DNA of 64,000 nucleotides. Origin: an uncultured Gammaproteobacteria bacterium (GTDB taxonomy: Bacteria; Patescibacteriota; Microgenomatia; Levybacterales; UBA12049). Of the stretch, positions 4,964-38,107 are shown in pieces (the stretch's first letter is position 1; each line of letters begins with the position of its first letter). The stretch lies in assembly GCA_964507055.1 (NCBI GenBank), contig CAZDOJ010000003.1, forward strand, positions 4,819-68,818, in the 5' to 3' direction. The translations under genes were made by a program, and so were the position numbers. Under the pieces are notes generated by a model that saw only the letters and a list, made by a program, of their open reading frames with translations, ran no database searches and was not told the origin of the DNA.

Positions 4964-4994
4964 ATTACTACATATATTAATTAGGCATGTCAAG
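4964..4994 (-). promoter_or_regulatory. Conserved promoter/operator-like element upstream of giant gene A. Read on the minus strand it contains TTGACA (4994..4989) followed by an AT-rich -10 region (ATTAATATATGTAGTAAT).
   Basis: 'attactacatatattaat[2nt]aggc[1nt]tgtcaag' is nearly identical at 4964-4994, 13794-13823 and 36007-36037. Each copy lies about 65-95 bp upstream of a giant-gene ATG and is followed by a conserved 'aatcttatc' box. Confidence 0.45.
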
Positions 4995-5603
4995 CACAAA
5001 TTAATCTTATCATAATTACATCAAAAATAACCATTTAGCCTTAAAAAATGAGCTGTCCAACTTTCTGCGAAACTCTAGTTTTGTAAGAAAATAAGTTAAT
5101 TTTCACAGCTTCAAAACTCTTATTAATTTTCACAAAATTTCTTTACCCCTTTTGATGCTTAATGATATTTTTTGTATTACTTAAAGAATTTTTATATTTT
5201 CTCTTCCTTTTGTACATTTCTCTTGAATAAAAATCTCAGCCTTAGAAAAAAATAGAGAGAGAAATAACTCGTAAGTATAGATAAAATTGCAATATATTTA
5301 TGTGTATCAAAAGGTAAACCTATGCATCAATGATAAATTTACTAACGAGACATGACTCTCACATGCGATTCACACATCTACAAGTATTTATAAAAACTAC
5401 CACTGATAAAAACTAACGACACAAGAACAACCACAAAGAGTCACCAGAAGTTGGAGAAGTCGATCTAAAGACTCTCTGGTGGAAGAGAAAGAGTATCCTT
5501 TACGTCAAAGTCGAAGTTAATCTATATAGTAAAAAAATGAGTATGGAAAATAAACCTAATTGAACATATTGGATAAGTTTGAAGAATTGCTATAGCAAGT
5601 TAG

Positions 5604-13724: not shown

Positions 13725-13793
13725 TGGGCAGTAATGAAATTGAGCTCAAATACTAGACTTTGTCACCTTTTGTCCAATATTTTCACATAATAT

Positions 13794-13823
13794 AATTACT
13801 ACATATATTAATAAGGCTGTCAA
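13794..13823 (-). promoter_or_regulatory. Conserved promoter/operator-like element upstream of giant gene B (same motif as 4964-4994 and 36007-36037)
   Basis: The sequence is 'attactacatatattaataaggctgtcaagg'. The reverse complement gives TTGACA plus an AT-rich -10 region oriented toward the ATG at 13724. Confidence 0.45.
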
Positions 13824-14123
13824 GGATGAGAATAATCTTATCGTATACTTATCATACTTTATCGATTGTGCTCGACAATTTCGTGAAAAGTTTCGGGGAA
13901 TTATTGATGAGAGAATCCAGTAAATTCTAATAATCTTATACGTGCGATTTTGGAGAATTTCATTAGTTGCAAAAACGTGTTTTTAGAAATTGAGTCAGTT
14001 TAAAAAAAGTCTTATAATAATCATTATCCGTCAGGGACAGAGATATATCCTTCCCTTTTTACGAAAAAATTAAAGATATCAATAGTTATATTAATGCATC
14101 AAAGTGGTGGTCTATTCTTTGTT

Positions 14124-25000: not shown

Positions 25001-28000
25001 AACATTAAGTACTGCAAACTTTGCAGAGTTACTTGCTTGTCCTCCAACTAAGAAGTCAACGGTTGAATTCATTGGGGTGATAACACCATTTGCTTGGTTC
25101 CAGTAATTAGCTAAACCGCCAGTACAATTACCCCAAGTTGGTGCACCACCGCCATTGGACATCAAACATTGTCCCCCAGTTCCTGCAGCTGTTTGTGCGA
25201 CAACACCTGAGCCGTTGGTGTATAAGAGTCCGCCATCAGTTGTAAGACCACCAAAGGTGATTGAACCGGATGCTGCAAGATTTGCTAAGCCTGTGAGGTT
25301 TTGTCCATTACCGGTAATTGCTCCAGTTAATGTTGTTGCACCCAATCGGAGTACGCCACCTGAGGCGGAAATGTCATGATTTCCTGTACCTGAGAATGTT
25401 AATCCAGCACCATTTCCTGAACCTGTAAATCCTGTTGTGCCAGTTGCTGTGATGTTACCTCCGGAGATATTATCTGCACCTGTATCGATTGCACCAAAGC
25501 CTGAAGTGATCGAACCTGCATTCAAAGCACCGACGCTTGTCAGAGATGAATTGATGATACCCGAACCAAGCGTATTACTACTCAAAACACTTGTGCCACC
25601 AATCATATATGCACCACCAACGATATTCAAATCGCCATTACTACTTAACGTCAATCGTGTCGTACCAGAAGATGATGCTGTGAAGATATCACCTGTTCCC
25701 TGCTTGTTGACGATCAATGCGGAGTTACCACCAGCATTTGGAGCAACAACGACGCCACCTGTGCCAGCGTTGGTTCCAAGTGTCAGATTAAATCCACCCA
25801 ATGCTATCTGTGTTGCAGCATCAAGACTCAAACTGTCAGCAAGTTCTGTGAAGTTGATGACATCATCAGCGATTGAAACATTTGCTTCATTTGCAGGTGA
25901 AGCTGTTACTAAGAAGTCTGTTCCGAAATCAATCGTATCAACATCAGTACCGACACCACTATCGTTATTCTCAACATTTACGACACCTGCTGGTCCACCA
26001 GTACCGCCAGCATCAGATCCACACGCCCAGACTTTTGTTGTATCATTCCATTTAAGAATCTGTCCGTCATTACAACCTCGAAGGATCGACAAACCGTTTG
26101 CAGTACTGAACTCCAAGCCTGAATTGGAGGAAGTATTGACTGTATCTCCAGAAGAAGTCAATGCAATTGTAGCCACACCAGTATTGCTCAATGTTATGCC
26201 TCCTGAAATTGATGTAAAGGTTGGGACGCCTGAACCGTTACCCAAAAGGACTTGACCACCAGTTGGAGCTGATGTTACAGATAAGGCACTTCCTCCATTT
26301 CCATAAACAACGCCATTGGTTGTAAAGCTTGTTTGACCTGTACCACCATTTGCAACAGGTAATGTTCCGGTCACATCAGCTGTTGCCAAACCGATTGCTG
26401 AACTTGAAAGTACACCTGATGCATTTGTTTTAACGATGCCAGCTCCAAATCCGTTCAAGACAACATTACCGGTTGTACTATTACCAATAGTTAAGGATTG
26501 TCTGTCAGTTGTGCCGATTGTTCCATTTGCTGCAAGTGAAATACCACCCGTAGATCCTGCAGAAACGGATGCTATTGGTGTGCCTGAATTGACATTTAAG
26601 ACTGCAAACTTCGCAGAATTGGATGCTTGTCCACCAATCAAGAAGTCAACAGTTGAGTTCACTGGAGTTAACACGCCATTTGCCTGATTCCAATAGTTTG
26701 CGAGGCCACCCGCACATGAACCCCATGTTGGTGCACCACCACCATTAGAAATGAGACATTGGCCTGAGCCACCCGCTGTCGTCTGAGCTACAACGCCTGA
26801 TCCATCTGTATATAAGAGTCCACCATTATTGGTAAAGTTAGCAAAGGTAATCGAACCTGATGAAGACAAACCAGTCAATCCGGTCAATGTACCGGTCGCT
26901 GTCATATTTCCATTACTTGCAAGAGTAAATCGTGTGGTCCCAGCTGCACTTGCAGTAAAGATGTCACCTGTTCCCTGCTTGTTGATGATCAAAGCTGAAT
27001 TGCCTCCAGCATTTGGGGCAACGACGATACCACCTATACCAGAGTTCGTACCCAAAGTTAAATCAAAGTTCGATAATGCAATGCTTGTCGCTGCATCCAA
27101 TGTCAGCGAGTCTGCAATTTCAGTGAAATTGATGATGTCGTCCGCAATTGAAACATTTGCCTCTGTTGATGGTGAAGCTGTTACTAAGAAGTCAGAACTA
27201 AAGTCAATCGTGTCGACACTACTCCCAACAGGTGAATCATTGTTCTGGATATTCACAATACCAGCACCACCTCCGCCACCAGCATCACTTCCACAAATTA
27301 AATTACCACTTGCATCAGTATCGATGGAATCACAGTTAGCCAATCCATTAATTCGGACATTTCCACTACCGTTCAATGGATTCAAAACGATATTCCCCGT
27401 GGTATTACCTCCGAGAGTTAAGGTGTTGTTGTTTGTTGTCTGAATTACACCAAGTCCATTGAATGTCAAATTGCCTGAAGTAGTAGCATTTCCTGTACCA
27501 GAGAATACTTGGAACTTCGCTGAAGCAGTACTTGTCCCGCCAATCAACAAATCATCCGTAATACTTAATGGAGAAAGAGCTCCAGCAATTCTCTGCCAGT
27601 AATTTGTTCCTACACTTGCGGCATCAGTCCAACTTGGTGCTCCTGAACCATTTGATATGAGAACTTGACCATTACTGCCAACGCCTGTGAATGCATATGA
27701 TGAGCCATTTGAATAGGCAACTGAACCCGCAGATCCAACCGATGTTACACCTGTGCCACCATTACCTACAGCTAATGTTCCGGTAACATCACCTGAAGCC
27801 AAATCAATTGCACTTGATGAAAGGACACCTGAGCCATTGCTCTTGACGATTCCTGTAGAAAGTCCACTAAAGGTGATTGTCCCAGCGGCAGACAAATTAT
27901 TCAATCCAGTAATGTTTTGAGAATTACCTGTTATTGCACCAATCAATGTTGTCGCACCCAATTGTAATGTTCCTCCTGATGCTGTGATCGTATGATTACC

Positions 28001-31000
28001 TGTTCCAGAGAATGTTAAATCAGCATCATTTCCTGAAGCTGTAAATCCAGTTGCTCCAGAAGCAGTAATATCAGTACCTTGGATCGTACTACTTGTAAAG
28101 ATACTGCCAAAACCATTTGCGATTGATCCTGAAGCCAAAGCACCTACACTTGTCAAAGATGAATTGACGACACCAGCACCAAGTGTTGAGCCGGTGAGAA
28201 CACTTGTTCCATTGATCTGGAATTCTTTACCGGATGCCAAGTTAAGATGGCCTGTGGAAGTAACTGTACCAGCACCAGCCAATGGAGCAAGCAGGATATT
28301 TCCTGTGGTGTTGCCTCCGATTGTAAGTGTTTGATTATTCGTTGTCTGCAATGTACCTGCAGCTGTTAGATATGTTGCTCCGGTTGCACCAGCTGATACA
28401 GATGCTGTTGGTGTTCCCGAATTGACATTTAAGACTGCAAACTTTGCAGAATTACTTGCTGATCCTCCAATAAGGAAATCAACTGTCGAATTCATTGGAG
28501 AAAGTGCACCATTTGCTTGGTTCCAGTAATTGATAGAACCTGCAGCACATGATCCCCAAACCGGTGCTCCTCCGCCATTGGATTGGAGACATTGACCAGC
28601 TGTGCCTTGAGCTGTTTGTGCCACGACTCCTGATCCGTTGGTGTAAAGCAAACCTCCATCGGTTGTAAATCCTCCAAAGGTGACAGTTCCTGAAGCTGAA
28701 AGATTGCCCAAACCTGTGATATTTTGTCCGTTGCCGGTAATAGCTCCAGTAAGTGTTGCGGCACCAAGTTGGAGTGTGCCTGCTGAAGCTGAGATCAAGT
28801 GGTTACCAGTTCCTGAGAACAAGAGGTCCGCGTCATTGCCTGTAACAGCCAAACCGGTTGTTCCTGTAGAAGTAATATCTCCACCAGAAATAGCATCAGC
28901 TCCTGTATCGATTGCACCGAAACCTGAAGTAATTGAACCTGCATTCAATGCCCCAACTGTTGTCAAAGATGAATTTGTAACACCTGATCCGAGAGTGTTA
29001 CTACTTAAGACAGTTGTTCCACCAATTTGATAATTACCACCAGTAATATTCAAGTCGCCTGAGTTACTCAAGGTCAATCGAGTTGTACCTGATGCTGAAG
29101 CCGTGAAGATATCACCTGTCCCTTGCTTGTTGACGATCAATGCGGAATTACCTCCAGCGTTTGGTGAAACAACGACACCACCAGTTCCAGCATTTGTTCC
29201 AAGAGTTAAATTAAAGTTGGAAGTTGCGATACTTGTCGCTGCATCCAATGTCATGTTGTCGATGAACTCAGAGAAGTCCAAAATATCATCAGCGATTGAG
29301 ACATTTGCTTCATTGGATGGAGATGCTGTCACTGTGAAATCTGTACTGAAATCAACTGTATCTACGTTTGAACCGACTCCAATATCATTATTCTGGACAT
29401 TAATAGTACCTGCAGATCCAGATCCACCAGCATCGGTCGCACAAACCCAAGCCTTTGTTGAATCATTCCACTTAAGAATTTCATCATTTGCACAACCTCG
29501 AAGCAATGATAATCCATCAGTTGTATTGAACTCCAAACCAGAATTGGAACTTGTATTGGCTGTATCTCCAGATGAAGATAACGCAATTGTTGCAACTCCG
29601 GTATTACTAATGGTTACTCCACCTGAAATTGTCGTGAATGTTGGAACTCCAGAACCATTGCCCAAAAGCACTTGACCACCAGTTGGTGCGGAAGTTACAG
29701 ACAAAGCACTTGCACCATTGCCGTAGACAACACCATTGGTAGTAAAGCTTGTCTGTCCTGTACCACCGTTGCCAACTGGTAATGTACTCGTCACATCACC
29801 AGAACTCAAGTCAACTGCACTCGATGAAAGCACTCCAGATCCATTGCTCTTGACGATTCCTGTAGAAAGTCCACCAAATGTGATCGTTCCGGCAGCTGAT
29901 AAGTTGTTCAAACCAGTGATACTCTGGCTATTTCCAGTGATTGCACCAGTTAATGTGGCTGCACCGATTTGGAGTGTTCCAGATGATGCACTTACGATAT
30001 GATTACCCGAGCCTGAGAAGGTTAATCCTGCTCCAGTACCAGTCGCTGTAAATCCTGTAGTTCCAGATGCTGTAATATCTGATCCTTGAATCGTGCTTCC
30101 AGTTAAAATACTACCGAAGCCACTTGCGATTGAACCGGACGTCAATGCACCAACACTTGTCAAAGATGAATTGATAACACTTGAACCAAGCGTTGAAGCA
30201 CTCAAGATACTGACGCCATTGATCTGGAATTCATTTCCAGTTGTGAGATTCAAGTTGTCGTTCACTGTAAGTGTATTCTGTGATAGATCCGAAAGTTGGC
30301 CTTCGATTGCAAGATTTCCGTTTCGGCTAAGAACAAATTGTGTTGTTCCCGACGCTGAAGCCGTGATGATGTCTTGATTTCCGGTTTCATCGAAGACAGC
30401 CAATGCTTTTCCTGCTGCTGCACCAGAAACTGTCAATTTACCTGTTGGTGTATCTGTACCAATTCCGAGTTTTTTGGTGAGAGCATCCCATGAGAATCCT
30501 GAAGTTTCAGATGATAATGATCCTGTCCCATCGAAGAATGCAATTTGTCCCGCAGTACCTGATCCAACCAAGCCTCCACCTGATCCTGCACAATTACCAG
30601 AATCAAGACAAATCTCGCCGCTTTCATCAGGCAATGTATATGTTCGAGGTGCTGTAAGGTTTGCGATGGTTAACTGACCACGTCCATCTGTATCATAAAA
30701 GTACAAAGACGTTCCTTGTGTACCACCAGCAGTGAACGCTGCACCTGAGATGACATCACCAATCGCAGTGATGTCTCCTGCACCACCAACTGATGTCACA
30801 TTCTTCCAACTTAATCCGCCAGTACTATTAGTAGTCAAAACATAATCGCTCGAACCATCAGAACCTGGCCATGTGTATGTAACACCATTGAATTGTGTTG
30901 TTCCAATATTTACCAAATTACCATTTGTATCTACTCTTTGTGTTCCACTACCTGCTCCCGTGTTAAGACCTGTCGTTCCATTTATAGTAGTACCAGTAAT

Positions 31001-34000
31001 AGTACTCGTTGTAGCGATTGTTCCAAAACCATTTGCGATCGATCCTCCGGTCAATGCACCAACATTTGTCAAAGATGAATTAACAACGCCTGTTCCAAGG
31101 GTTGTCGCGGTGAGAACATTTATTCCGTTAATCTGGTAGTTATTCCCTGACGCAAGATTCATAGTACCGTTAACTAATACTGTCCCTGCACCATTTAATG
31201 GTGAGAAGATTATATTGCCAGTACTATTGCCACCAACTGTTAAGGTTTGATTATTTGTGGTTTGGATGTTGCCAGCTGCATTGAATGTGAGTGAACCTGA
31301 GGTTGAAGCATTGCCTGTATTACCAAAGATTTGGAACTTGGCTGAAGCTGTACTCGTACCACCAATTGCAAGATCATCGGCAATATTAAGAGGAGCAAGA
31401 AGTCCTGCGTTTCTCTGCCAATAGTTGGTACCGAGACTTGAAGGACTTGCCCAAGTTGGAGCACCGGAACCATTGGAAATAAGTACTTCTCCATTACTAC
31501 CAACACCTGTGAATGCAAATGTCGAACCGTTGGAGTAAGCGACCCCACCAGCAGAACCGACTGAAGTGATACCTGTTCCTCCATTGCCAGTTGCCAATGT
31601 TCCAGTAATATCACCTGAAGCCAAATTAACTGCACTTGATGAAAGGACGCCTGAGCCATTGCTCTTGACGATTCCAGTGGAAAGCCCACCAAAGGTAATT
31701 GTTCCTGATGCAGAGAGATTATTAACTCCGACAATACTTTGACTGTTTCCGGTTAAGTCACCAGTTAAAGTAGCTGCTCCTATCTGAAGTGTCCCAGATG
31801 ATGCACTTATGCTATGATTTCCTGAGCCTGAGAAGGTCAGTCCAGCTCCGTTTCCTGTTGCCGTAAATCCTGTTGTACCGGATGCAGTAATATCACTTCC
31901 CTGAATTGTATTTGACGTAAAGATACTTCCGAAGCCATTTGCGATCGATCCTGAAGTCAAAGCTCCAACACTGGTCAAAGATGAATTGATAACTCCTGAG
32001 CCAAGCGTTGATGCACTTAAGACACTTGTACCATTGATTTGGAACATGTTGCCTGAAATCAAATTCAAACTATCATTTACTGTTAATGCATTCTGGGTAA
32101 GATCTGAAAGCATGCCTTCGATTGCTAAGTCACCATTGCGTGCTAAGCGTAGTTGTGTGATACCGGATGCTGAAGCTGAGAAGATATCTTGATTACCAAG
32201 TTCATCAAAAATTGCTAATGCCTTGCCTGCTGCTGCACCAGAAACGCTCAGCTTACCTGTTGGAGTGTCTGTGCCTATGCCAAGTTTCTTGTTAATTGCA
32301 TCCCAGGCAAAGCCAGAAGTCTCGGATGAAATTGTGCCTGTATCTGTGAAGAATGCTAATTGACCAGCCGTACCCGTACCAACAATTCCACCACCAGCTC
32401 CAGCACAGTTACCAGAATCAAGACAAATTTCACCTGATGCATCTGGCAATGTGTATGTTCGAGGTGAAGTGAGGTTTGCTATAGTAAGTTGTCCTCGCCC
32501 ATCTGTATCATAAAAGTACAAAGAGGTTCCTTGTGTGCCACCAGCAGTAAATGCCGCACCAGAGATCACGTCTCCAATGGCAGTAATATCTCCAACTCCA
32601 GGAAGCGTTGCTGGATCATTCCAAGTCAAATCTCCACTGCCATCAGTTGTGAGGACGTAGTTATTCGAACCTGCAGAACCCGGCCAGCTATAAGTAATGC
32701 CATTGAACTGGGTTGTTCCGATGTTGGTTAGATTTCCGGTAGTGTCAATTCGTTGTGTGCCAGCCCCAGCACCCGTATTTACACCGATTGTACCGTTAAG
32801 GGTTGTACCAGTAATCGTATTGTTGTTATTAATCGTGCCAAAACCCATTGTGATGGAGCCAGCACTCAATGCTCCAACTGAAGTCAAAGATGAATTTGTA
32901 ACGCCTGATCCTAGTGTTGTTTCGGTCAAAACATTTGAACCATTAATCTGGTAAGCCTTACCTGAAACAAGGTTGAGATTACCAGTCGAAGTTACCGTCC
33001 CATTCCCATTTTGAGGAGAAAGTGTAATATTTCCAGTTGTTCCACCACCAATCGTTAATCCTTGATTATTGGTACTTTGGATTACGCCTGCGGTATTGAA
33101 CGTAAATGTACCTGAAGTACTCGCATTACCTGAGATACCAAAGACTTGGAACTTCGCTGAGTTTGTGGCAACTCCACCAACGAGTAAATCATCTGAGATG
33201 TTTAATGGAGCAAGCGTACCTGCACCTCGTTGCCAATAGTTAAGTGTGCCCGAAGATATCCATGTAGGTGTTCCTGCACCAGAGACCGCAAGCACTTGTC
33301 CTTCCGTCCCTATTGGAAGTGCAGCTAATGTATTACCAGCTGAAGCATAAACCAAATCACCTGTATTGAATGAGTTTAAGCCAGTACCGCCATTCGTCAC
33401 AGGAAGAACACCTGTTACATATGAAGTTCCTCCCGCAAGATTGAGTGCAGAACTTGAGAGGAGACCTGAGCCATTACTTTGAACTACACCAGTTCCAAGA
33501 GCACCAAATGTGACTGTGCCAGAAGCAGAAAGATTATTGAAACCTGTCGCGTTCTGACCATTTCCAGTCAAAGCCCCAGTCAAAGTAACTGCTCCCAATC
33601 GAAGGACACCCGATGACGCAGTCACATCATGATTACCTGTGCCTGAGAAGTTCAATCCGGCACCGTTACCTGTTGAAATAAAGCCAACTGAACCAGTGGA
33701 AGTAATATCCCCACCACTAATTGCATCGGCTCCAACATCAATATTCCCAAATCCAGAAGTGATAGAACCTGAATTAAGAGCACCAACTGAAGTAAGAGAT
33801 GAACTCACAACGCCAGAACCCAAACTAGTACTTGTGAGGACAGGCGTTCCACCAATCTGATAGGAACCACCGATGATGTTGAGATCTCCACTGCTATTGA
33901 GGGTAAGTCTTGTCGTCCCCGACGCGGATGCAGTCAAAATATTCTGACCAGATCCAGTGTAATTAAAGACAGCAAGAGCCTTACCTGCAGGACCCCCAGA

Positions 34001-35941
34001 AACAGTTAAAAGCCCTTCCGGGCTTGTGGTGCCTATACCAACTCTTCCATTGTCGTATATGCTCGAGTCAGATATCCCACTCGAACTCGTAAACTTGGCT
34101 ATGTAATTGGTGGTACCGGAACCGGAAATGCCTCCTCCTCCACCTCCACTACAATTTCCCGAAGTCAAACAAACAGTTCCACTTGCATCAGGGAAGGTAT
34201 ACGTTCGACCGGTTGTTAGTGGATCCATACTGATTGTTCCAGTCAAGCCAGATCCAAATACAATCTGATTCGCACTATTGGTCAAGTTCAAAGTTGCAAA
34301 AGTTGGTGAAGCTGCAGTATGAATATCCTGTGGTGTAGAGAATGTAATCGAACCAGCACCGTTGCTTATAGTAATTTGATTGACCGTACCTGTCAGGTTG
34401 CCCAATGTATAGTCAGTTCCATTTCCTATAAGAAGTTGGCCATTTGTAGGTATTGAGGCTAACCCTGTTCCTCCGTTTGCTACAGGGAGAACGCCAGTTA
34501 CTTCAAGAGCTCCGCCTGATAAGTTCAACGCACTTGTTGAGAGCAAACCATTACTGTCAGCCTTTACGATACCTGTACTCAAACCGGAAACAGTCAAACT
34601 ACCTGAGAATCTTCCATTACCTGTGACATCCAAAGTAGCACCAGGTGCTGTGTTTCCTATGCCTACATTACCGAGGTTGTAATATATATCGGATCCTGTA
34701 GTTGTCCACTGACTTGTGGCTGACCCATTCGCTGAAATAGTCAAAGTTTTGTCTGTAGTATTTGTGCTGAGCGTAATTCCGCTTCCAGCAGCGAAATTAA
34801 ATGTGTCTGTATTCGAACCAGCGGAGACTGGAGTGCCATCGATATTGAACGTGCTAAATATCTTTTGTCCTGAACCAGGATCGCTGTTGGTTATAGTAAG
34901 ATTATTAAGCGTAATTCCAGCTCCCTGAGTAAAGTTAAGAGCTCCTGTCTGACCCTGAAGCGAAAGTACACCAGTGTTGGTGATAGTTAATCCATCAAGT
35001 CCTATTCCTGATCCCTGAGCTAAAGCTACTTCGCCTGTTTGACCTTGGAATGATCTGACTAACCCACTACCCAAGTTAGCTGAGATTGTAGGATTCTGGG
35101 GATCACCCGTGACTGAAATGTTTGTACCAGCAAGAACAGAATAGACCACGTTTGATGCTGTCAATCGACCTGTGCCCGCATCAATATCAGAATTATTTGT
35201 AACGATGCCTCCACTTGTTGTGGCAATCCCATCAACAGTCAAGCCTTTGCGTATACCAACGCTATCAAGAAAAGTCGCCTGCTTCCCAAAGACAGAAGGG
35301 ATATTCACCCTGAGCACAAAGACCGGAGTATTATCATTTGCTGCTAATACCTCCCGAGCACTTGCACCTTCACGCAGTAATCCTTTCCCAAATCTATCTA
35401 AACTTTCTCCCCAGGTAGGAGCCAAATTCGCAACGAGGACAAATCCTACAAACAGAACTAAGACAGCAAACACGCCAGCCATGGGCGAAACATCTTTCAT
35501 ATCCCGAAGTCTTGATGGCATCTTATATCCACCAAATACATCTTGTCTCGGCTGACTAACTAGATCAGAAACTTGGACATTAGCTTCGGTTTGAGTTTGA
35601 GGCACGACTACGGGGTTAGTTGGAGTTTGTGGGGCTGTAAGCTTTTCGATTGAAGCCTCGGCCTCATGTGTTGGAGTAACAATTGGTTCCTCACTTTGAA
35701 CTGGCTCTGAAGCGACTACAACCGGTGCTGCAGGAGTTGTAGTTGAGCTTGCTGGGGCTGATTGAACAGGCTTGAATCCGTTTTGCTTGAAAGCAAGAAG
35801 TTGCTCCTTCGAATACCTTCGCTGGTTACCAGCGGTTCGATAAGGCAGAAGAACCTTTCGTTCCTCCCAGCGGCGAAGCGTTGTAGGAGAAACTCCTAAA
35901 AGCGTCGCTGCTTCTTGTATTGTGAGCAGTGATTCGTTCAT
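19070..35941 (-). CDS. Giant repetitive surface protein, paralog C (about 5623 aa; the track ORF extends to 35968, but the paralog-consistent ATG is at 35941). Excisionase-type HTH, linker, TM, then an ectodomain built from several long, internally duplicated repeat families.
   Basis: Complete 16.9-kb ORF. 'MNESLLTIQEAATLLGVSPTTLRRWEERKVLLPYRTAGNQRRYS' aligns with the A and B N-termini. TM 'MAGVFAVLVLFVGFVLVANLA'. The repeats include a roughly 693-aa unit duplicated in tandem, 3+ copies of a 'GC.ND.ILKWND..K.W.C..DAGG...' module, and 8+ copies of '..NYWN.ANG.LSP.NST.D.LIGG.ASNSAKFAVLNVNSGTPTASVSA'. Confidence 0.9.
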   Translation of the reverse strand: MNESLLTIQEAATLLGVSPTTLRRWEERKVLLPYRTAGNQRRYSKEQLLAFKQNGFKPVQSAPASSTTTPAAPVVVASEPVQSEEPIVTPTHEAEASIEKLTAPQTPTNPVVVPQTQTEANVQVSDLVSQPRQDVFGGYKMPSRLRDMKDVSPMAGVFAVLVLFVGFVLVANLAPTWGESLDRFGKGLLREGASAREVLAANDNTPVFVLRVNIPSVFGKQATFLDSVGIRKGLTVDGIATTSGGIVTNNSDIDAGTGRLTASNVVYSVLAGTNISVTGDPQNPTISANLGSGLVRSFQGQTGEVALAQGSGIGLDGLTITNTGVLSLQGQTGALNFTQGAGITLNNLTITNSDPGSGQKIFSTFNIDGTPVSAGSNTDTFNFAAGSGITLSTNTTDKTLTISANGSATSQWTTTGSDIYYNLGNVGIGNTAPGATLDVTGNGRFSGSLTVSGLSTGIVKADSNGLLSTSALNLSGGALEVTGVLPVANGGTGLASIPTNGQLLIGNGTDYTLGNLTGTVNQITISNGAGSITFSTPQDIHTAASPTFATLNLTNSANQIVFGSGLTGTISMDPLTTGRTYTFPDASGTVCLTSGNCSGGGGGGISGSGTTNYIAKFTSSSGISDSSIYDNGRVGIGTTSPEGLLTVSGGPAGKALAVFNYTGSGQNILTASASGTTRLTLNSSGDLNIIGGSYQIGGTPVLTSTSLGSGVVSSSLTSVGALNSGSITSGFGNIDVGADAISGGDITSTGSVGFISTGNGAGLNFSGTGNHDVTASSGVLRLGAVTLTGALTGNGQNATGFNNLSASGTVTFGALGTGVVQSNGSGLLSSSALNLAGGTSYVTGVLPVTNGGTGLNSFNTGDLVYASAGNTLAALPIGTEGQVLAVSGAGTPTWISSGTLNYWQRGAGTLAPLNISDDLLVGGVATNSAKFQVFGISGNASTSGTFTFNTAGVIQSTNNQGLTIGGGTTGNITLSPQNGNGTVTSTGNLNLVSGKAYQINGSNVLTETTLGSGVTNSSLTSVGALSAGSITMGFGTINNNNTITGTTLNGTIGVNTGAGAGTQRIDTTGNLTNIGTTQFNGITYSWPGSAGSNNYVLTTDGSGDLTWNDPATLPGVGDITAIGDVISGAAFTAGGTQGTSLYFYDTDGRGQLTIANLTSPRTYTLPDASGEICLDSGNCAGAGGGIVGTGTAGQLAFFTDTGTISSETSGFAWDAINKKLGIGTDTPTGKLSVSGAAAGKALAIFDELGNQDIFSASASGITQLRLARNGDLAIEGMLSDLTQNALTVNDSLNLISGNMFQINGTSVLSASTLGSGVINSSLTSVGALTSGSIANGFGSIFTSNTIQGSDITASGTTGFTATGNGAGLTFSGSGNHSISASSGTLQIGAATLTGDLTGNSQSIVGVNNLSASGTITFGGLSTGIVKSNGSGVLSSSAVNLASGDITGTLATGNGGTGITSVGSAGGVAYSNGSTFAFTGVGSNGEVLISNGSGAPTWASPSSLGTNYWQRNAGLLAPLNIADDLAIGGTSTASAKFQIFGNTGNASTSGSLTFNAAGNIQTTNNQTLTVGGNSTGNIIFSPLNGAGTVLVNGTMNLASGNNYQINGINVLTATTLGTGVVNSSLTNVGALTGGSIANGFGTIATTSTITGTTINGTTGLNTGAGSGTQRVDTNGNLVNIGTTQFNGVTYTWPGSDGSSDYVLTTNSTGGLSWKNVTSVGGAGDITAIGDVISGAAFTAGGTQGTSLYFYDTDGRGQLTIANLTAPRTYTLPDESGEICLDSGNCAGSGGGLVGSGTAGQIAFFDGTGSLSSETSGFSWDALTKKLGIGTDTPTGKLTVSGAAAGKALAVFDETGNQDIITASASGTTQFVLSRNGNLAIEGQLSDLSQNTLTVNDNLNLTTGNEFQINGVSILSASTLGSSVINSSLTSVGALTSGSIASGFGSILTGSTIQGSDITASGTTGFTATGTGAGLTFSGSGNHIVSASSGTLQIGAATLTGAITGNSQSITGLNNLSAAGTITFGGLSTGIVKSNGSGVLSSSAVDLSSGDVTSTLPVGNGGTGQTSFTTNGVVYGNGASALSVTSAPTGGQVLLGNGSGVPTFTTISGGVTISNTGVATIALSSSGDTANTSSNSGLEFNTTDGLSLLRGCANDEILKWNDSTKAWVCATDAGGSGSAGTINVQNNDIGVGSNVDTVDFSTDFTVTASPSNEANVSIADDILDFSEFIDNMTLDAATSIATSNFNLTLGTNAGTGGVVVSPNAGGNSALIVNKQGTGDIFTASASGTTRLTLSNSGDLNITGGNYQIGGTTVLSSNTLGSGVTNSSLTTVGALNAGSITSGFGAIDTGADAISGGDITSTGTTGLAVTGNDADLLFSGTGNHLISASAGTLQLGAATLTGAITGNGQNITGLGNLSASGTVTFGGFTTDGGLLYTNGSGVVAQTAQGTAGQCLQSNGGGAPVWGSCAAGSINYWNQANGALSPMNSTVDFLIGGSASNSAKFAVLNVNSGTPTASVSAGATGATYLTAAGTLQTTNNQTLTIGGNTTGNILLAPLAGAGTVTSTGHLNLASGKEFQINGTSVLTGSTLGAGVVNSSLTSVGALASGSIANGFGSIFTSSTIQGTDITASGATGFTASGNDADLTFSGTGNHTITASGGTLQLGATTLIGAITGNSQNITGLNNLSAAGTITFSGLSTGIVKSNGSGVLSSSAIDLASGDVTGTLAVGNGGTGVTSVGSAGSVAYSNGSSYAFTGVGSNGQVLISNGSGAPSWTDAASVGTNYWQRIAGALSPLSITDDLLIGGTSTASAKFQVFSGTGNATTSGNLTFNGLGVIQTTNNNTLTLGGNTTGNIVLNPLNGSGNVRINGLANCDSIDTDASGNLICGSDAGGGGGAGIVNIQNNDSPVGSSVDTIDFSSDFLVTASPSTEANVSIADDIINFTEIADSLTLDAATSIALSNFDLTLGTNSGIGGIVVAPNAGGNSALIINKQGTGDIFTASAAGTTRFTLASNGNMTATGTLTGLTGLSSSGSITFANFTNNGGLLYTDGSGVVAQTTAGGSGQCLISNGGGAPTWGSCAGGLANYWNQANGVLTPVNSTVDFLIGGQASNSAKFAVLNVNSGTPIASVSAGSTGGISLAANGTIGTTDRQSLTIGNSTTGNVVLNGFGAGIVKTNASGVLSSSAIGLATADVTGTLPVANGGTGQTSFTTNGVVYGNGGSALSVTSAPTGGQVLLGNGSGVPTFTSISGGITLSNTGVATIALTSSGDTVNTSSNSGLEFSTANGLSILRGCNDGQILKWNDTTKVWACGSDAGGTGGPAGVVNVENNDSGVGTDVDTIDFGTDFLVTASPANEANVSIADDVINFTELADSLSLDAATQIALGGFNLTLGTNAGTGGVVVAPNAGGNSALIVNKQGTGDIFTASSSGTTRLTLSSNGDLNIVGGAYMIGGTSVLSSNTLGSGIINSSLTSVGALNAGSITSGFGAIDTGADNISGGNITATGTTGFTGSGNGAGLTFSGTGNHDISASGGVLRLGATTLTGAITGNGQNLTGLANLAASGSITFGGLTTDGGLLYTNGSGVVAQTAAGTGGQCLMSNGGGAPTWGNCTGGLANYWNQANGVITPMNSTVDFLVGGQASNSAKFAVLNVNTGTPTASVSAGSAGAAYLTAAGTLQTTANQTLTIGGNTTGNITLSPLAGAGIVNLTGSLNLASGKEFQINGASVLNATTLGSSVVTSSLTTVGALNAGSITSGFGSIDTGTDAISGGNITSTGTTGFTASGNGAGLAFSGTGNHDISASSGVLRLGATTLTGAITGNSQNITGVANLGTTGTVTFGSFTTDGGLLYTNGSGVVAQTAQGTSGQCLQSNAGGAPTWGSCTGSLANYWNQNNGALSAMNSTVDLLVGGQSSASAKFAILNVNSGTPTASVSAGSAGGASLTADGVLGTTARQSLTLGNSTTGNIVLNGFTAGVVKTNASGVLSSSAIGLATADVTGTLPVGNGGTGATTLTQGGVLYGNGTSPVAASAQGTAGQALLSGGTGAPTWTTGTLALAGNFSTSGANALTLTTTGATNVTLPTTGTLATLAGTETLSGKTLTAPRFVNGGFIADANGNEQLIFGTTASAINELTLTNAAAGGTVTLAATGGDSNIPFAIDAKGTGELRLNGTGTGNVLLGGGFGGTGCTVTNSTGAFACNGAVTGSNISGTTSGTNTGDQTITLTGDVTGSGTGSFATVIADNSVDGTDIALGSDATGDLMYYNGTDWVRLAAGTSTQLLHSGTTPSWGAVSLTADITGVLGSANGGTGANLSAANQGAVPYFSATGVMSALAPGTAGYVLTTNGAGQNPTWSNAAALGTNYWNLANGSLSPVNNTLDLLIGGQASNSAKFAVLNVNSGTPTASVSAGSAGAAYLTAAGALQTTVNQTLSLGGNTTGNIVLNSDGNNFVGIGTATPTNRLTVAGNIEALNGTQQSLLTDTGSIELARTSDDAFIDFKTSTAEDFDARIEGFGGGLAIRTGGSGTQQFVFENGGNLGIGTLDPTTNLHVVGGARITGLANCNTIDTDANGVLSCGTDESGGVQNFWNLNQGTLAPVNSTVDLLIGGTSSSSAKFAILNVNSGTPTASVSAGSAGGASLTATGVLGTTARQSLTLGNNTTGNIVLNGFTAGVVKTNASGVLSSSAIGLATADVTGTLPVGNGGTGATTLTQGGILYGNGTSPVAASAQGTSGQALLSGGTGAPTWTTGALALAGDFTTSGANALTLTTTGTTNVTLPTTGTLATLAGTETLSGKTLTAPRFVNGGFIADANGNEQLIFGTTASAINELTLTNAAAAGAVTLAATGGDSNIPFAIDAKGTGELRLNGTGTGNVLLGGGFGGTGCTVTNSNGNFACNGTLAGSNFSGSTSGTNTGDQTITLTGDVTGTGTGSFGTTIADNSVDGTDIALGSDATGDLMYYNGTDWTRLAAGTGNQLLHSGTTPSWGAVDLTTQITGTLPIANGGTNSTATPTNGGVAYGTGTAFAFTSAGTNGDCFKSNGAAAPTWGSCGGANYWNLANGAFSPVNSTADILIGGTASSSAKFAVLNMNSGTPTASVSATATGNGLSLGGDAVIQSLRNNTLTIGGNTTGNITLSPQAGSGTVTSTGNLNLSSGKEFQINGASILSASTLGSSVVTSSLTTVGVLNSGSINTGFGAIDVGSDNIAGGNITAAGTTGYASTGNGAGLTFSGTGNHDITASVGVLRLGALTLTGTITGNTQSITGLGQLTVDNLRLDNNTLDTTTGDLTLAPNGGDVIFNDATTLNIGGNASDVAYNIIGDTITGANGNMGSDDDLFIEGDLQTLGTIFGNVTGNLTGNVTGNTFTSSSGDITLNAAGSDIIIADNDTLNVGGYGGGSAFNVIGDSVVNNNTADGDNDLYIQDELEVDGIVTIGSTTNGIQFDPAAGPTYYGTARPVRKVTLSAEYPGAILTASNSGTTNGFMTSDASSSASQNLSNFMSYYEWNSSQTAIQDYTVAVRVTLPDDFAAWETSNALQIYYNTELTTNTGNKLDVRVYNSDISLSAAQASTPVAMRVNQTSASQRQWNVISIDDSELDAGNTRDLDAAGETAIIYLKLYSKDNNYTQVGDIVLNYRSNK
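20350..24500. repeat. Intragenic tandem duplication inside giant gene C, period 2079 bp (693 aa), two copies about 85-90 % identical. Boundaries are approximate.
   Basis: The antisense shadow ORFs 21159-21791 and 23217-23870 are about 88 % identical and offset by exactly 2079 bp. The sense-strand protein shows 'NYWQRGAGTLAPLNISDDL...' to 'NYWQRNAGLLAPLNIADDL...' as repeated units. Confidence 0.7.
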
Positions 35942-35968: not shown

Positions 35969-35983
35969 AAATGGATAAGTTTG
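35969..35983. repeat. 15-bp direct repeat 'AAATGGATAAGTTTG', copy 1 (copy 2 at 36088-36102). The two copies flank the conserved promoter element of giant gene C.
   Basis: Exact 15/15 match read directly in the sequence at 35969-35983 and 36088-36102. Confidence 0.6.
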
Positions 35984-36006
35984 CTTAACTTTTCACCAGT
36001 ATATTA

Positions 36007-36037
36007 ATTACTACATATATTAATATAGCTTGTCAAG
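36007..36037 (-). promoter_or_regulatory. Conserved promoter/operator-like element upstream of giant gene C (third copy of the motif)
   Basis: The sequence is 'aattactacatatattaatatagcttgtcaagg', followed by 'tattatcttatcttaatcttatc'. It has the same orientation and a similar distance to the ATG as at the other two giant genes. Confidence 0.45.
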
Positions 36038-36087
36038 GCTGAGTATTATCTTATCTTAATCTTATCATAATTCATCCTCTAGAAGCT

Positions 36088-36102
36088 AAATGGATAAGTT
36101 TG
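36088..36102. repeat. 15-bp direct repeat 'AAATGGATAAGTTTG', copy 2
   Basis: Exact match to 35969-35983. Confidence 0.6.
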
Positions 36103-36268
36103 TCTTTAGAAAAAAATCTACTGAGAAAAGATCAATTTCATGACAAAAAAAGTCCTGTGAAAACATCAAAAAATCAACTAATGTAATCGATATCATACTG
36201 ATGCTTTAAAAAATCATTTGAAGTTCTGATACCTTGACGGCTTTTGCAGATTTTGGTACTTTTTGCTT

Positions 36269-37222
36269 ATGCTCGATATAGTCTACGCAATCTCACCATA
36301 CATGCTCCGGTTTCTGGAAAAAGCAGAAATTGCCAGAAAGCAGATACTCCTCTACCCTATGGAACCAAAGAAAGAACTGACAGTGCAGTTTGCAGCAACA
36401 ATGGATCGAATCTACTTTGGTCTTACCGAGACAGAAATTCCTGTTTTGAGGGAAAAAATAAAGTCAATTTTATCCAATCAAATTGTTTTTGCGATGCAAA
36501 AAAATCCGCAGAAAAGGGATCTGATACAAAATACTGTTTTAGGGTACAAACAGTCTCTTGACTATATCAAAAGAGATTGGACATTAAACCCTGAGACAGT
36601 ACAGGCTAAACATATCTTACAAATCTATGATTACATCGGCGGAGAGAAATCAGCAACAATAGAAAAGCATCTTCAGGAAATCACAACATATCTCCAAGTC
36701 AGTTCCGACAATCCATATGTCCAAGCAGCGATCGCAAAACTCCTCTACAGAAGCCTCTTGCCGCCAGGAACAAAGGCAGATATGTTCTCAACGCTTTGTA
36801 GCTATCTATTTCTCTACAAGGGAGGTATCGATTGCCGAGGACTTTTGGTTTTAGAGAAGCCATGGGCTGAAGAAAACAAGATTTTCTTGGGACATTACCA
36901 AACAGCTATCGCCAAGGCAAATGTCACAAGCTGGGTTGAATATTACGTCAAAACCCTTTCCCAAACTCTCGAGCTAACATATTCGCAACTTTCCCAAACA
37001 ACAAAATTGCCAGTACAAGATAACATCGGAAAGTTAAACGAACGACAGAAAACGATTATGACTCTTTTGGACGACCCAAAGACAGTTATAACAAATCGAA
37101 CAGTTCAAAAAATCTTCCACATTTCGCAAATCACTGCATCACGAGATCTTGCAAAATTAACATCATTGGGATTACTCTTCACTCAAGGCAAAGGGAGATC
37201 AGTTCGATATACTAGGATATAG
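36269..37222 (+). CDS. Fic/Doc-fold protein with a degenerate active site and a C-terminal winged-HTH (the track ORF starts at TTG 36263; the first ATG is at 36269)
   Basis: The segment 'NPYVQAAIAKLLYRSLLPPGTKADMFSTLCSYL...WVEYYVKTLSQ' aligns with the Fic core 'HPYV.AA..H..F..IHPF.DGNGR..R......W..FF...L'. The HPFx[DE]GNGR motif is replaced by 'LPPGTKADM'. The C-terminal 'TNRTVQKIFHISQITASRDLAKLTSLGLL' is wHTH-like. Confidence 0.55.
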   Translation: MLDIVYAISPYMLRFLEKAEIARKQILLYPMEPKKELTVQFAATMDRIYFGLTETEIPVLREKIKSILSNQIVFAMQKNPQKRDLIQNTVLGYKQSLDYIKRDWTLNPETVQAKHILQIYDYIGGEKSATIEKHLQEITTYLQVSSDNPYVQAAIAKLLYRSLLPPGTKADMFSTLCSYLFLYKGGIDCRGLLVLEKPWAEENKIFLGHYQTAIAKANVTSWVEYYVKTLSQTLELTYSQLSQTTKLPVQDNIGKLNERQKTIMTLLDDPKTVITNRTVQKIFHISQITASRDLAKLTSLGLLFTQGKGRSVRYTRI

Positions 37223-37286: not shown

Positions 37287-37316
37287 TTGACATCCCTTCC
37301 AATTCCTGGGTACTAT
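37287..37316 (+). promoter_or_regulatory. Putative sigma70-like promoter for the atp operon: TTGACA (37287-37292), 18-nt spacer, TACTAT (37311-37316). An AGGAGG RBS lies 5 nt before the ATG at 37333.
   Basis: Read directly from the sequence: 'ccTTGACAtcccttccaattcctgggTACTATagaattAGGAGGaactATG'. Confidence 0.35.
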
Positions 37317-38103: not shown

Positions 38104-38107
38104 AATC

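What the first reader, a model, noticed from the sequence alone, without database searches (positions are those of the whole stretch)
36269..37222. Fic-fold protein with an ablated HPFx[DE]GNGR motif next to the giant-gene cluster
The region aligning to the Fic active-site loop reads 'RSLLPPGTKADMFS' instead of HPFxDGNGR. The flanking Fic-core helices ('NPYVQAAIAKLL', 'WVEYYVKTL') and a C-terminal winged HTH are retained. This is a likely catalytically inactive Fic (pseudo-enzyme or DNA-binding regulator). It is divergently oriented from giant gene C and shares its intergenic region (including the 15-bp direct repeats), so it is a candidate local regulator.
Basis: partly seen in the sequence, partly recalled or inferred. 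Interest (0 to 1): 0.5.

Follow-up and report, generated by a model that had tools for sequence, protein, structure and literature searches.

The report
Dead Fic enzyme turned DNA-binding regulator
This gene encodes a Fic-type enzyme fold that has lost its whole catalytic motif but keeps an almost invariant DNA-binding domain, and comparison with about 80 related genomes suggests it is a transcription factor acting on a conserved repeat next to the promoters of giant surface-protein genes in candidate-phyla-radiation bacteria.

Summary
ORF 36269-37222(+), 317 aa, has a class-II-type Fic fold plus a C-terminal winged HTH. Support: profile vs PDB CbFic2 8CIL E 5e-12, Foldseek top hits all Fic-wHTH proteins, and the PADLOC SoFic model E 2.4e-9. 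The HPFx[D/E]GN[G/K]R loop reads LPPGTKADM (1 of 8 residues kept). The alpha-inhibitory (S/T)xxxE(G/N) motif is absent. There is no frameshift, and dN/dS is about 0.03.

The protein belongs to a Microgenomates-wide family of about 400 clusters at 50% identity. The catalytic His is almost always lost and the motif decays by degrees, while the recognition helix SQITASRDL is nearly invariant.

In 72 of 81 loci the gene is divergent from a large envelope-protein gene. The shared intergenic region carries a tandem 11-bp repeat (GATAAGATTnnGATAAGA, "motif A"). One copy (O1) lies next to the neighbour's promoter. An inverted copy (O2) overlaps the gene's own promoter. Motif A is about 150-fold enriched there, and O1-O2 spacing is helically phased.

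In the window O1 is perfect (36048-36067) and O2 is decayed. O1-like sites precede all three giant genes.

Best reading: a pseudo-Fic transcription factor. This is a new variant of a known kind, comparable to CccR.

The parts
36269..37222 (+). Pseudo-Fic/wHTH gene (317 aa plus stop)
   Evidence: ORF. 479 homologues of uniform length, about 300-325 aa. dN/dS about 0.03 against L001.
36419..36439 (+). Relic of the alpha-inhibitory motif position (G51-LTETE-I57). No (S/T)xxxE(G/N).
   Evidence: Profile alignment to FICD TVAIEGN. Regex and alignment census.
36755..36787 (+). Ablated Fic active-site loop, residues 163-173 LLPPGTKADMF. The HPFxDGNGR-equivalent is L164-M172.
   Evidence: HMM alignment to 8CIL HPFDDGNGR. 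Motif census.
36581..37003 (+). Fic core helices, about residues 105-245
   Evidence: Profile hits to Fic structures. Foldseek. SoFic model residues 120-313.
37031..37219 (+). C-terminal DeoR-like winged HTH, residues 255-317. Recognition helix S286-L297 is at 37124-37159; Q287 covaries with the half-site.
   Evidence: Pfam HTH_DeoR E 8.9e-4, matched by 24 of 28 members. ArsR/HlyU-type wHTH fold hits. Invariant columns. Covariation.
36234..36262 (+). Probable own promoter: TTGACG (36234-36239), 17-bp spacer, TGn-TACTTT (36257-36262). The ATG at 36269 lies 7 nt after the -10, so the mRNA would be leaderless (inferred).
   Evidence: Sequence. TTGAC(G/T)-N17-TA..(G)T is conserved in orthologous loci. 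Not reported by the consensus scanner.
36244..36261 (+). Decayed O2 operator relic (8 of 16 matches), at the position (-25) where relatives carry TGATAAGATTATGATAAGA
   Evidence: matches counted by hand on the sequence.
36048..36067 (-). O1: tandem 11-bp direct repeat ATCTTATCTTAATCTTATCA (reverse complement TGATAAGATTAAGATAAGAT), 16 of 16 matches to motif A, about -47 to -66 from the inferred giant-gene C transcription start
   Evidence: (D12).
36008..36036 (-). Giant-gene C promoter on the minus strand: TTGACA (36036-36031), 17-bp spacer, TAGTAA (36013-36008). The 17-mer TTACTACATATATTAAT is conserved.
   Evidence: 11 of 11 close loci conserve it. The 17-mer occurs exactly 3 times in the window, once before each giant gene.
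35969..35983 (+). 15-bp repeat copy 1 (motif-B variant), in the giant-gene C leader
36088..36102 (+). 15-bp repeat copy 2 (motif-B variant), about -87 to -101 from the inferred giant-gene C transcription start
19070..35941 (-). Giant gene C (about 5.6 kaa) with an N-terminal MerR/HTH_17 head. Divergent neighbour and proposed target.
13796..13853 (-). Same promoter cassette plus an O1-like site (13836-13853, 14 of 16) upstream of giant gene B (start 13724)
4965..5022 (-). Same promoter cassette plus an O1-like site (5005-5022, 13 of 16) upstream of giant gene A (start 4900)

Best explanation
The gene encodes a catalytically dead descendant of a class-II-type Fic-wHTH protein, the SoFic/CbFic2/CccR architecture. 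It now works as a sequence-specific transcription factor.

Shown:
- the Fic fold
- complete loss of the HPFx[D/E]GN[G/K]R motif and of the inhibitory Glu
- strong purifying selection
- a near-invariant recognition helix
- conserved divergent synteny with large envelope-protein genes
- a conserved operator-like motif at that position

Inferred:
- The wHTH binds tandem 11-bp repeats with core GATAAGAT (motif A), probably as a dimer of dimers.
- In most relatives one pair (O1) sits 10-25 bp upstream of the -35 of the divergent neighbour's promoter. An inverted pair (O2) overlaps the spacer and -10 of the regulator's own promoter. The two are kept on the same face of the helix, with spacings of about 62, 72, 82 or 93 bp. 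That arrangement suggests cooperative binding or looping that couples autorepression to control of the neighbour.
- In this window's clade O2 has decayed but O1 is perfect, and O1-like sites precede all three tandem giant genes. Here the protein would mainly control the giant surface-protein genes.
- The dead Fic domain would serve as a dimerisation and/or sensor module.
For: Fold and motif. Motif census. Among 145 representatives of 50%-identity clusters, none has HPFxxGN[GK]R, one has the His, and 8 keep xPFxDGNGR. Among 83 genome loci, 4 keep 8 of 8 positions, including Levybacteria in the same synteny (L022, L043). Catalysis is therefore dispensable within a single orthologous lineage.

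Selection: dN/dS 0.03 overall and 0.012 for the wHTH.

Recognition helix: SQITASRDL is kept in 110 of 146 representatives.

Synteny: 72 of 81 loci have a divergent upstream neighbour. The neighbours fall into classes (HTH_17-headed giants, HTH_17+dCache, signal peptide plus SH3_3, Laminin_G-bearing large proteins), and every class identified is an envelope protein.

Motif A: 128 hits at 13 or more of 16 positions in the 260 bp upstream of the gene (21.6 kb in total), against 48 hits in the other 1.27 Mb. 64 of 83 loci have O1, 51 have O2 and 44 have both.

O1 and O2 are reverse complements of each other. Their spacing falls into four classes one helical turn apart: Rayleigh R = 0.81 at a 10.5-bp period, with p about 5e-4 even when only the unique distances are used.

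Motif A is present whatever the class of neighbour, including neighbours with no HTH (13 of 14 and 6 of 6 loci). The Fic-like wHTH is thus the one constant candidate binder.

Covariation: half-sites read exactly GATAAG in 60% of cases where residue 287 is Gln, and in 12.5% where it is Pro or Ala. In the Levy P/A clade both half-sites become GATATG.

Precedent: CccR, a Fic-wHTH protein, represses its own promoter as a dimer and independently of AMPylation (PMC9755527). CbFic2 binds DNA through its wHTH (PMC10628234).
Against: No experiment has been done; binding is guilt by association.

Where the gene has moved (L024, L046, L056 and L007), motif A stays with the giant-gene/ATPase control region and not with the gene. 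Another conserved factor could therefore be the binder.

The second half-site of O2 also reads as an extended -10 (TGnTAAGAT), so part of the motif's conservation could be promoter conservation.

The covariation rests on about 4-5 lineages, and Gln-bearing loci also show some half-site variation.

In the window itself the autoregulatory O2 is gone (8 of 16 matches).

The three O1-bearing cassettes in the window are paralogous, so they do not count as three independent observations.

Pfam's HTH hit on the window protein alone is below the gathering threshold.

4 of 83 relatives keep a canonical motif and lack the inhibitory Glu, so the family as a whole is not uniformly dead.
Confidence: 0.6

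Rival explanations
1. Motif A is bound by some other factor, or is simply a promoter element such as an extended -10. The pseudo-Fic gene is then only a syntenic passenger of the giant-gene/ATP-synthase control region. It may still be a DNA-binding protein, but with a different target.
For: In L024, L046 and L056 the gene sits after the ATPase operon while the O1-O2 cassette stays between the giant gene and p256. In L007 the cassette precedes the downstream giant gene, and the gene's own upstream region lacks motif A. The second half-site of O2 coincides with TGnTAAGAT at -10 distance from TTGACA.
Against: Motif A persists next to the gene in lineages whose neighbour belongs to an unrelated class and where no ATPase operon is nearby. 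On its own strand O1 lies upstream of the neighbour's -35, so it is not a -10 for that promoter. The helical phasing of O1 and O2 and the covariation with residue 287 are not expected of a passenger gene.
Confidence: 0.17
2. The protein chiefly regulates the downstream p256/F-type ATP synthase operon rather than the giant gene, or regulates both.
For: In about 35 Levybacteria loci the operon follows directly on the same strand. In three loci the O2-bearing promoter reads straight into p256.
Against: Woese-, Gottesman- and other Microgenomates loci keep the gene, O1 and O2 with no ATPase nearby. In the window p256 has its own strong promoter-like site (37287-37316, 10 of 12 matches) that carries no motif A.
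Confidence: 0.12
3. It is still an enzyme, either with migrated catalytic residues or with a different chemistry (as Doc is a kinase and AnkX a phosphocholine transferase). Alternatively it is a SoFic-like anti-phage defence protein.
For: The PADLOC SoFic model matches it. Some relatives keep HPFxDGNGR without an inhibitory Glu. The pseudoenzyme literature warns that catalytic residues can migrate (PMC10211241).
Against: All eight motif positions except the Pro are replaced, and the loop is the most variable stretch within the window's clade. No compensating invariant His or Asp cluster is evident among the invariant columns. Fixed chromosomal synteny across phylum-level lineages is unlike a defence island.
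Confidence: 0.05
4. The wHTH mediates protein-protein or RNA contacts, and the protein is a non-DNA-binding adaptor for assembly or export of the giant proteins.
For: Function is untested. wHTH domains can bind proteins or RNA. The association is with envelope proteins.
Against: This does not explain the conserved, phased, inverted DNA repeat or its covariation with a recognition-helix residue. The closest characterised relatives bind DNA (PMC10628234, PMC9755527).
Confidence: 0.06

Closest known systems
CccR (Yersinia pseudotuberculosis), a class II Fic-wHTH protein that is both an AMPylating toxin and an autorepressor (PMC9755527)
   Same: It has an N-terminal helical domain, a Fic core and a C-terminal wHTH. 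It binds a repeat in its own promoter as a dimer, and its regulatory role is independent of AMPylation. This matches the O2-over-own-promoter arrangement in most relatives of the window gene.
   Different: CccR keeps an active Fic motif and is secreted by a T6SS. The window protein has lost the motif and the inhibitory Glu, and it comes from a CPR bacterium. The proposed operator here is a pair of tandem direct repeats in inverted orientation 60-95 bp apart, not a simple palindrome. Sequence similarity to CccR was not tested here.
CbFic2 (Coxiella burnetii CBU_0822, PDB 8CIL; PMC10628234)
   Same: It is the best sequence-profile hit (E 5.3e-12, covering Fic core and wHTH) and the best structural hit (E 9e-9). 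Its DeoR-type wHTH binds DNA and it dimerises through the N-terminal helix.
   Different: CbFic2 has HPFDDGNGRIGR and the inhibitory helix TSAIEG, and it is a bifunctional (de)AMPylase. No sequence-specific binding site has been identified for its DNA binding. Identity to the window protein is about 13%.
SoFic (Shewanella oneidensis, PDB 3EQX/3ZCN; also the PADLOC 'SoFic' defence model)
   Same: Same three-part architecture. The PADLOC SoFic model matches residues 120-313 of the window protein directly (E 2.4e-9).
   Different: SoFic is a competent, Glu-inhibited AMP transferase. The window protein lacks every catalytic residue and sits in conserved housekeeping-type synteny, not in a defence island.
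Degenerate or non-canonical FIC domains (AvrB; Bartonella Beps with non-canonical motifs, PMC8401265; clades lacking key residues in PMC4454073)
   Same: The Fic fold is kept under selection although the catalytic motif is lost.
   Different: Those examples are effectors or toxin-antitoxin derivatives without a wHTH regulator role. Here the loss occurs inside a chromosomal family that looks like a transcription factor family.
DeoR-family transcription factors
   Same: The HTH is of DeoR type (Pfam PF08220 is the best HTH match). A multi-operator arrangement suggestive of looping recalls DeoR; that comparison is from my own knowledge.
   Different: DeoR proteins have an N-terminal HTH and a C-terminal DeoRC sugar-phosphate sensor. 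Here the HTH is C-terminal and the other domain is a Fic fold. The NCBI label 'DeoR family transcriptional regulator' on P0114 is only partly apt.

Membership tests
Fic/Fido superfamily (PF02661) | Fic core fold of alpha helices around the active-site loop | tested here: met
   Profile against PDB. AF2 plus Foldseek, top 39 hits all Fic proteins. 11 of 28 relatives hit PF02661. SoFic model E 2.4e-9. The window sequence alone does not reach PF02661.
Catalytically competent Fic AMP transferases | HPFx[D/E]GN[G/K]R motif with the catalytic His | tested here: not met
   The window reads L-P-P-G-T-K-A-D-M, 1 of 8 positions kept. There is no such motif in any frame.
Class II Fic proteins | N-terminal alpha-inhibitory helix with (S/T)xxxE(G/N) | tested here: not met
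   The equivalent stretch is GLTETEI. A regex search finds nothing in the protein. The family consensus is SLxLxGNPL without the Glu, and only 2 of 83 sequences give chance-like matches. The AF2 model shows a loop at residues 52-60.
Class II Fic-wHTH architecture (SoFic/CbFic2/CccR type) | N-terminal helical domain, then Fic core, then C-terminal winged HTH, in one chain of about 310-380 aa | tested here: met
   Full-length structural alignments to 8CIL, 3ZCN, 3EQX, 4RGL and 7CB8. The HMM alignment to 8CIL spans Fic core and wHTH.
Fic-wHTH autoregulators (CccR-like) | Specific binding to a repeat in its own promoter | not testable with these tools
   Indirect only. The O2 repeat overlaps the gene's own promoter in 51 of 83 loci, but it has decayed in the window.
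DeoR family regulators | N-terminal DeoR HTH plus C-terminal DeoRC effector domain | tested here: not met
   The HTH is C-terminal (residues 259-303) and falls below the gathering score. There is no DeoRC hit.
SoFic anti-phage defence system | Active Fic enzyme encoded in a variable defence context | tested here: not met
   The catalytic motif is absent. Synteny is conserved across phylum-level lineages. Defence activity itself cannot be tested here.

The most novel reading that the evidence does not exclude
An entire orthologous family across the Microgenomates (CPR) would have converted an AMPylase into a dedicated transcription factor. Its dead nucleotide pocket would now act as a sensor, for example of ATP or energy state. 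Through two helically phased operators, that sensor would couple the signal to expression of metabolically very costly giant surface-protein genes and, in Levybacteria, of the adjacent ATP synthase operon. This would be the first regulator-operator pair proposed for CPR giant genes, and it would offer a stepwise natural series from active enzyme to pseudoenzyme within one locus.
Probability: 0.2. Interest if true: 0.7.

Novelty: new variant of a known kind. Interest (0 to 1): 0.52.

Why it matters
Giant genes are a hallmark of CPR/Patescibacteria genomes. To my knowledge nothing has been reported about how they are controlled, and I did not search the literature on this point.

This locus yields a concrete and cheap hypothesis to test: one small protein and one 20-bp repeat. 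The hypothesis is conserved over phylum-level distances.

The locus also provides a graded natural series within one syntenic orthologous family, running from HPFxDGNGR through xPFxDGNGR to a fully scrambled loop. That series is useful for studying how an enzyme becomes a pseudoenzyme while a second function, DNA binding, is retained.

Finally, it supports the view from CccR that the wHTH of class II Fic proteins is a genuine regulatory module that works independently of AMPylation.

Tried and rejected
- Pfam, NCBIfam and PDB phmmer with the single sequence gave no Fic hit. Family profiles and structure prediction were needed.
- Sequencing error or frameshift hiding an intact motif: rejected. 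The ORF is continuous, all six frames were checked, and orthologues are colinear.
- Known RNA in the intergenic regions: nothing was found, apart from a chance-level Yfr17 match inside the ORF.
- The consensus promoter scanner did not call the conserved promoters, because of its strict A2/T6 rule. The promoters are assigned from cross-locus conservation.
- The 15-bp repeats as the protein's operator: set aside. The motif they belong to (GTCYAAGTTT) occurs in two or more copies only with GNQRR-type HTH_17-headed neighbours, 18 of 30 loci against 0 of 51.
- Independent replication of the Q287/half-site covariation, using four distant non-Gln representatives. Half-sites do deviate from GATAAG in every one of them. 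Gln-bearing loci also vary, so the result is supportive and not decisive.
- p256 C-terminus as an ATP synthase c subunit: no Pfam support. It is kept only as an impression.
- Anti-phage defence or toxin-antitoxin reading: considered because of the PADLOC SoFic hit, and rejected on the missing motif and the conserved synteny.

Full report
**1. The observation**

The ORF at 36269-37222(+) encodes 317 aa. On its own it matches no Fic model in Pfam, NCBIfam or the PDB sequences. The only hit is a sub-threshold DeoR-type HTH at residues 259-303.

A database search returned 479 homologues of very uniform length. Most are unnamed, and the named ones come from Levybacteria and other CPR MAGs. A few carry precomputed PF02661 hits.

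In a 28-sequence alignment, 11 members hit Pfam Fic (best E 1.6e-7) and 24 hit HTH_DeoR. The family profile finds solved Fic-wHTH proteins: CbFic2 8CIL at E 5.3e-12 across Fic core and wHTH, then 8UQU, FICD and SoFic.

An AlphaFold2 model (pLDDT 86, pTM 0.74) retrieves only Fic proteins at the top of the PDB search. Isolated ArsR/HlyU-type wHTH hits match the C-terminus. The PADLOC SoFic model hits the window protein directly at E 2.4e-9. The Fic fold is therefore real.

**2. The motif**

In the HMM alignment to 8CIL, HPFDDGNGR aligns with window L164-P-P-G-T-K-A-D-M172. Only the Pro survives, and the second Arg of the extended motif is Thr.

The FICD inhibitory TVAIEGN aligns with G51-L-T-E-T-E-I57. 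No (S/T)xxxE(G/N) occurs anywhere in the protein, and the family consensus at that position is SLxLxGNPL with the Glu replaced.

No other reading frame holds a Fic motif. dN/dS against the 93%-identical orthologue is about 0.03 (dS is near saturation), and 0.012 for the wHTH. This is a gene under selection, not a pseudogene.

**3. The family**

An exhaustive phmmer search of 1.84 billion cluster representatives gives 412 hits at E<=1e-3 and 209 at E<=1e-30. Of the best 145 representatives:
- none has HPFxxGN[GK]R
- one has a His at the catalytic position
- eight keep xPFxDGNGR
- 110 keep the recognition helix SQITASRDL exactly

Among 83 loci from species-representative genomes (Levy-, Woese-, Gottesman-, Roizman- and Chisholmbacteria, plus WWE3), four keep a canonical motif. 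Two of these are Levybacteria in the same synteny as the window. Six have lost only the His, and the window's clade scores 0-1 of 8.

Catalysis has thus been lost, mostly early and then progressively, within one orthologous lineage whose DNA-binding domain hardly changes.

**4. Genomic context**

In the window and about 30 Levybacteria loci, the gene lies 215-350 bp from, and divergent to, a giant gene with a MerR/HTH_17 head. It is followed on the same strand by a 256-aa membrane protein and the F-type ATPase operon.

Rearranged loci keep the trio but change its order: L007, L004, and L024/L046/L056.

Outside Levybacteria there is no ATPase nearby. Even so, 72 of 81 loci still have a divergent upstream neighbour, and every class of neighbour identified is an envelope protein:
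- HTH_17+dCache proteins (9 loci)
- signal-peptide proteins with CxIGEFLYDD and SH3_3 (14 loci)
- 'INFQGK' large proteins, including one with Laminin_G_3 (6 loci)
- MerR-headed proteins (3 loci)

**5. The intergenic region**

Alignment of orthologous intergenic regions shows the following elements.

- **The neighbour's promoter.** On the minus strand it reads TTGACA-N17-TAGTAA (window 36036-36008).
- **O1.** Just upstream of that -35 lies a tandem 11-bp direct repeat, ATCTTATC-N3-ATCTTATCA (window 36048-36067).
- **O2.** In most lineages the exact reverse complement, TGATAAGATTATGATAAGA, overlaps the spacer and -10 of the regulator's own TTGACA promoter at about -25.

Scoring GATAAGATTNNGATAAGA at 13 or more of 16 positions gives 128 hits in the 260 bp upstream of the gene across 83 loci (21.6 kb). 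The remaining 1.27 Mb gives 48 hits, an enrichment of roughly 150-fold. 64 loci have O1, 51 have O2 and 44 have both.

O1-O2 distances fall only into 61-62, 69-73, 79-83 and 91-94 bp. That is one helical turn apart: R = 0.81 at 10.5 bp, and p is about 5e-4 even on the unique distance values. This pattern is what cooperating protein-bound operators would show.

Motif A is present whichever class the neighbour belongs to, including neighbours that have no HTH of their own. The pseudo-Fic wHTH is therefore the one constant candidate binder.

Where residue 287 at the start of the recognition helix is Pro or Ala instead of Gln, half-sites are rarely GATAAG: 12.5% against 60%. In the Levy P/A clade both half-sites read GATATG. 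This rests on about 4-5 lineages and is suggestive only.

**6. The window specifically**

O1 is perfect, but the O2 position (36244-36261) keeps only 8 of 16 matches. The own promoter (TTGACG 36234-36239, TGn-TACTTT 36257-36262) ends 7 nt before the ATG, which implies a leaderless mRNA. That is an inference.

The 17-mer TTACTACATATATTAAT occurs exactly three times in the 64 kb. Each copy lies in the same promoter cassette before a giant gene: A at 4965, B at 13796 and C at 36008. Each is followed by an O1-like site scoring 13, 14 and 16 of 16 respectively. These cassettes are paralogous, so they are not independent evidence. They do suggest a small regulon of giant genes.

**7. The 15-bp repeats**

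They are exact, conserved in L001, and flank the giant-gene C promoter at about +18 and -87. They are the local variant (GGATAAGTTTG) of a second motif, GTCYAAGTTT. That motif forms 11-bp-period arrays in giant-gene leaders. It occurs in two or more copies only where the neighbour has a GNQRR-type HTH_17 head, 18 of 30 loci against 0 of 51.

I therefore assign these repeats provisionally to the giant protein's own N-terminal HTH, not to the pseudo-Fic protein. Clade confounding cannot be excluded.

**8. Mechanism, rivals and comparison with known systems**

The best-supported reading is a pseudo-Fic transcription factor. It would bind GATAAGAT repeats and control the divergent giant gene or genes, with autoregulation in most relatives. 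The dead Fic domain would act as a dimerisation or sensor module.

Precedent comes from two proteins. CccR is a Fic-wHTH protein that represses its own promoter as a dimer, independently of AMPylation (PMC9755527; summarised in PMC10628234). CbFic2 has a DNA-binding wHTH (PMC10628234).

Main caveats:
- In four rearranged loci motif A stays with the giant-gene/ATPase control region rather than with the gene.
- Part of O2 doubles as an extended -10.
- Nothing here is experimental.

Rivals considered: a passenger gene with another binder of motif A, an ATPase regulator, a residual enzyme or defence protein, and a non-DNA adaptor. Each is given with a probability in the rivals section.

**9. Verdict**

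This is a new variant of a known kind, a Fic-wHTH regulator that has lost catalysis. It is conserved across Microgenomates and linked to giant surface-protein genes. Interest is moderate (about 0.5).

Noticed in passing
window 4965-5064, 13750-13853, 35969-36102: Three tandem giant genes have starts at 4900(-), 13724(-) and 35941(-). Each has a MerR/HTH_17 head, and each is preceded by the same promoter cassette: motif B repeats, TAGTAA -10, TTGACA -35, an O1 repeat, then (for A and C) a further motif B copy. The 17-mer TTACTACATATATTAAT occurs exactly three times in the window, once in each cassette.
   Followed up: partly
window 19070-35941(-) and loci L003-L052 (upstream neighbours): The giant surface proteins begin with a cytoplasmic MerR/HTH_17 DNA-binding domain. 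Arrays of GTCYAAGTTT with an 11-bp period (up to 7 copies) fill their 5' leaders, and only in loci with this type of head. This suggests autoregulation, or tethering of the DNA, by a membrane-anchored HTH.
   Followed up: partly
loci L025-L088, between O1 and O2 (e.g. L040, L050, L070); window 5035-5040 (TTAGCC): A short element, TTAGCCTCA (TGAGGCTAA on the neighbour's strand), is conserved between the two operators across phylum-level lineages. No function has been assigned.
   Followed up: no
window 37333-38821: The F-type ATPase operon starts with a conserved 256-aa membrane protein and a 237-aa protein. Neither has a Pfam hit. No ATP-synt_A or ATP-synt_C gene is annotated in the operon of L001 or L003. 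The 256-aa protein's C-terminal hairpin (…GVEAIGRNPLAKQAILLSVFINS…) resembles a c subunit without the carboxylate, but that is from memory only. The p256 query also matches by tblastn inside large (>=1000 aa) ORFs in distant loci (L081, L085, L086).
   Followed up: partly
L003, L011, L012, L016-L018 (leaders upstream of the orthologues): In the 54-62% identity clade the orthologues have leaders of about 90-100 nt with long inverted repeats, for example GAATGATGAATG…CATTCACTCATTC. The window and L001 lack this and appear leaderless.
   Followed up: no
L005/L006 11074-11733: An IS200-like Y1 transposase gene is inserted between the pseudo-Fic gene and p256 in one Levybacteria lineage.
   Followed up: no
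window 5100-5133, 13780-13786, 35990-35996; many loci: A third recurrent short motif, TTTTCAC(A), appears in the same control regions, often between O1 and O2 in relatives.
   Followed up: no
L009 (OZ246394.1) and many CA… records: Public records that hold close relatives are titled 'uncultured Gammaproteobacteria bacterium', although their gene content and relatives are Levybacteria/CPR. This is probably a mislabelling in the source.
   Followed up: no
window 1-36000 vs 36000-64000: The giant-gene block has a higher G+C content (about 0.44-0.47) than the flanking housekeeping genes (about 0.38-0.42).
   Followed up: no
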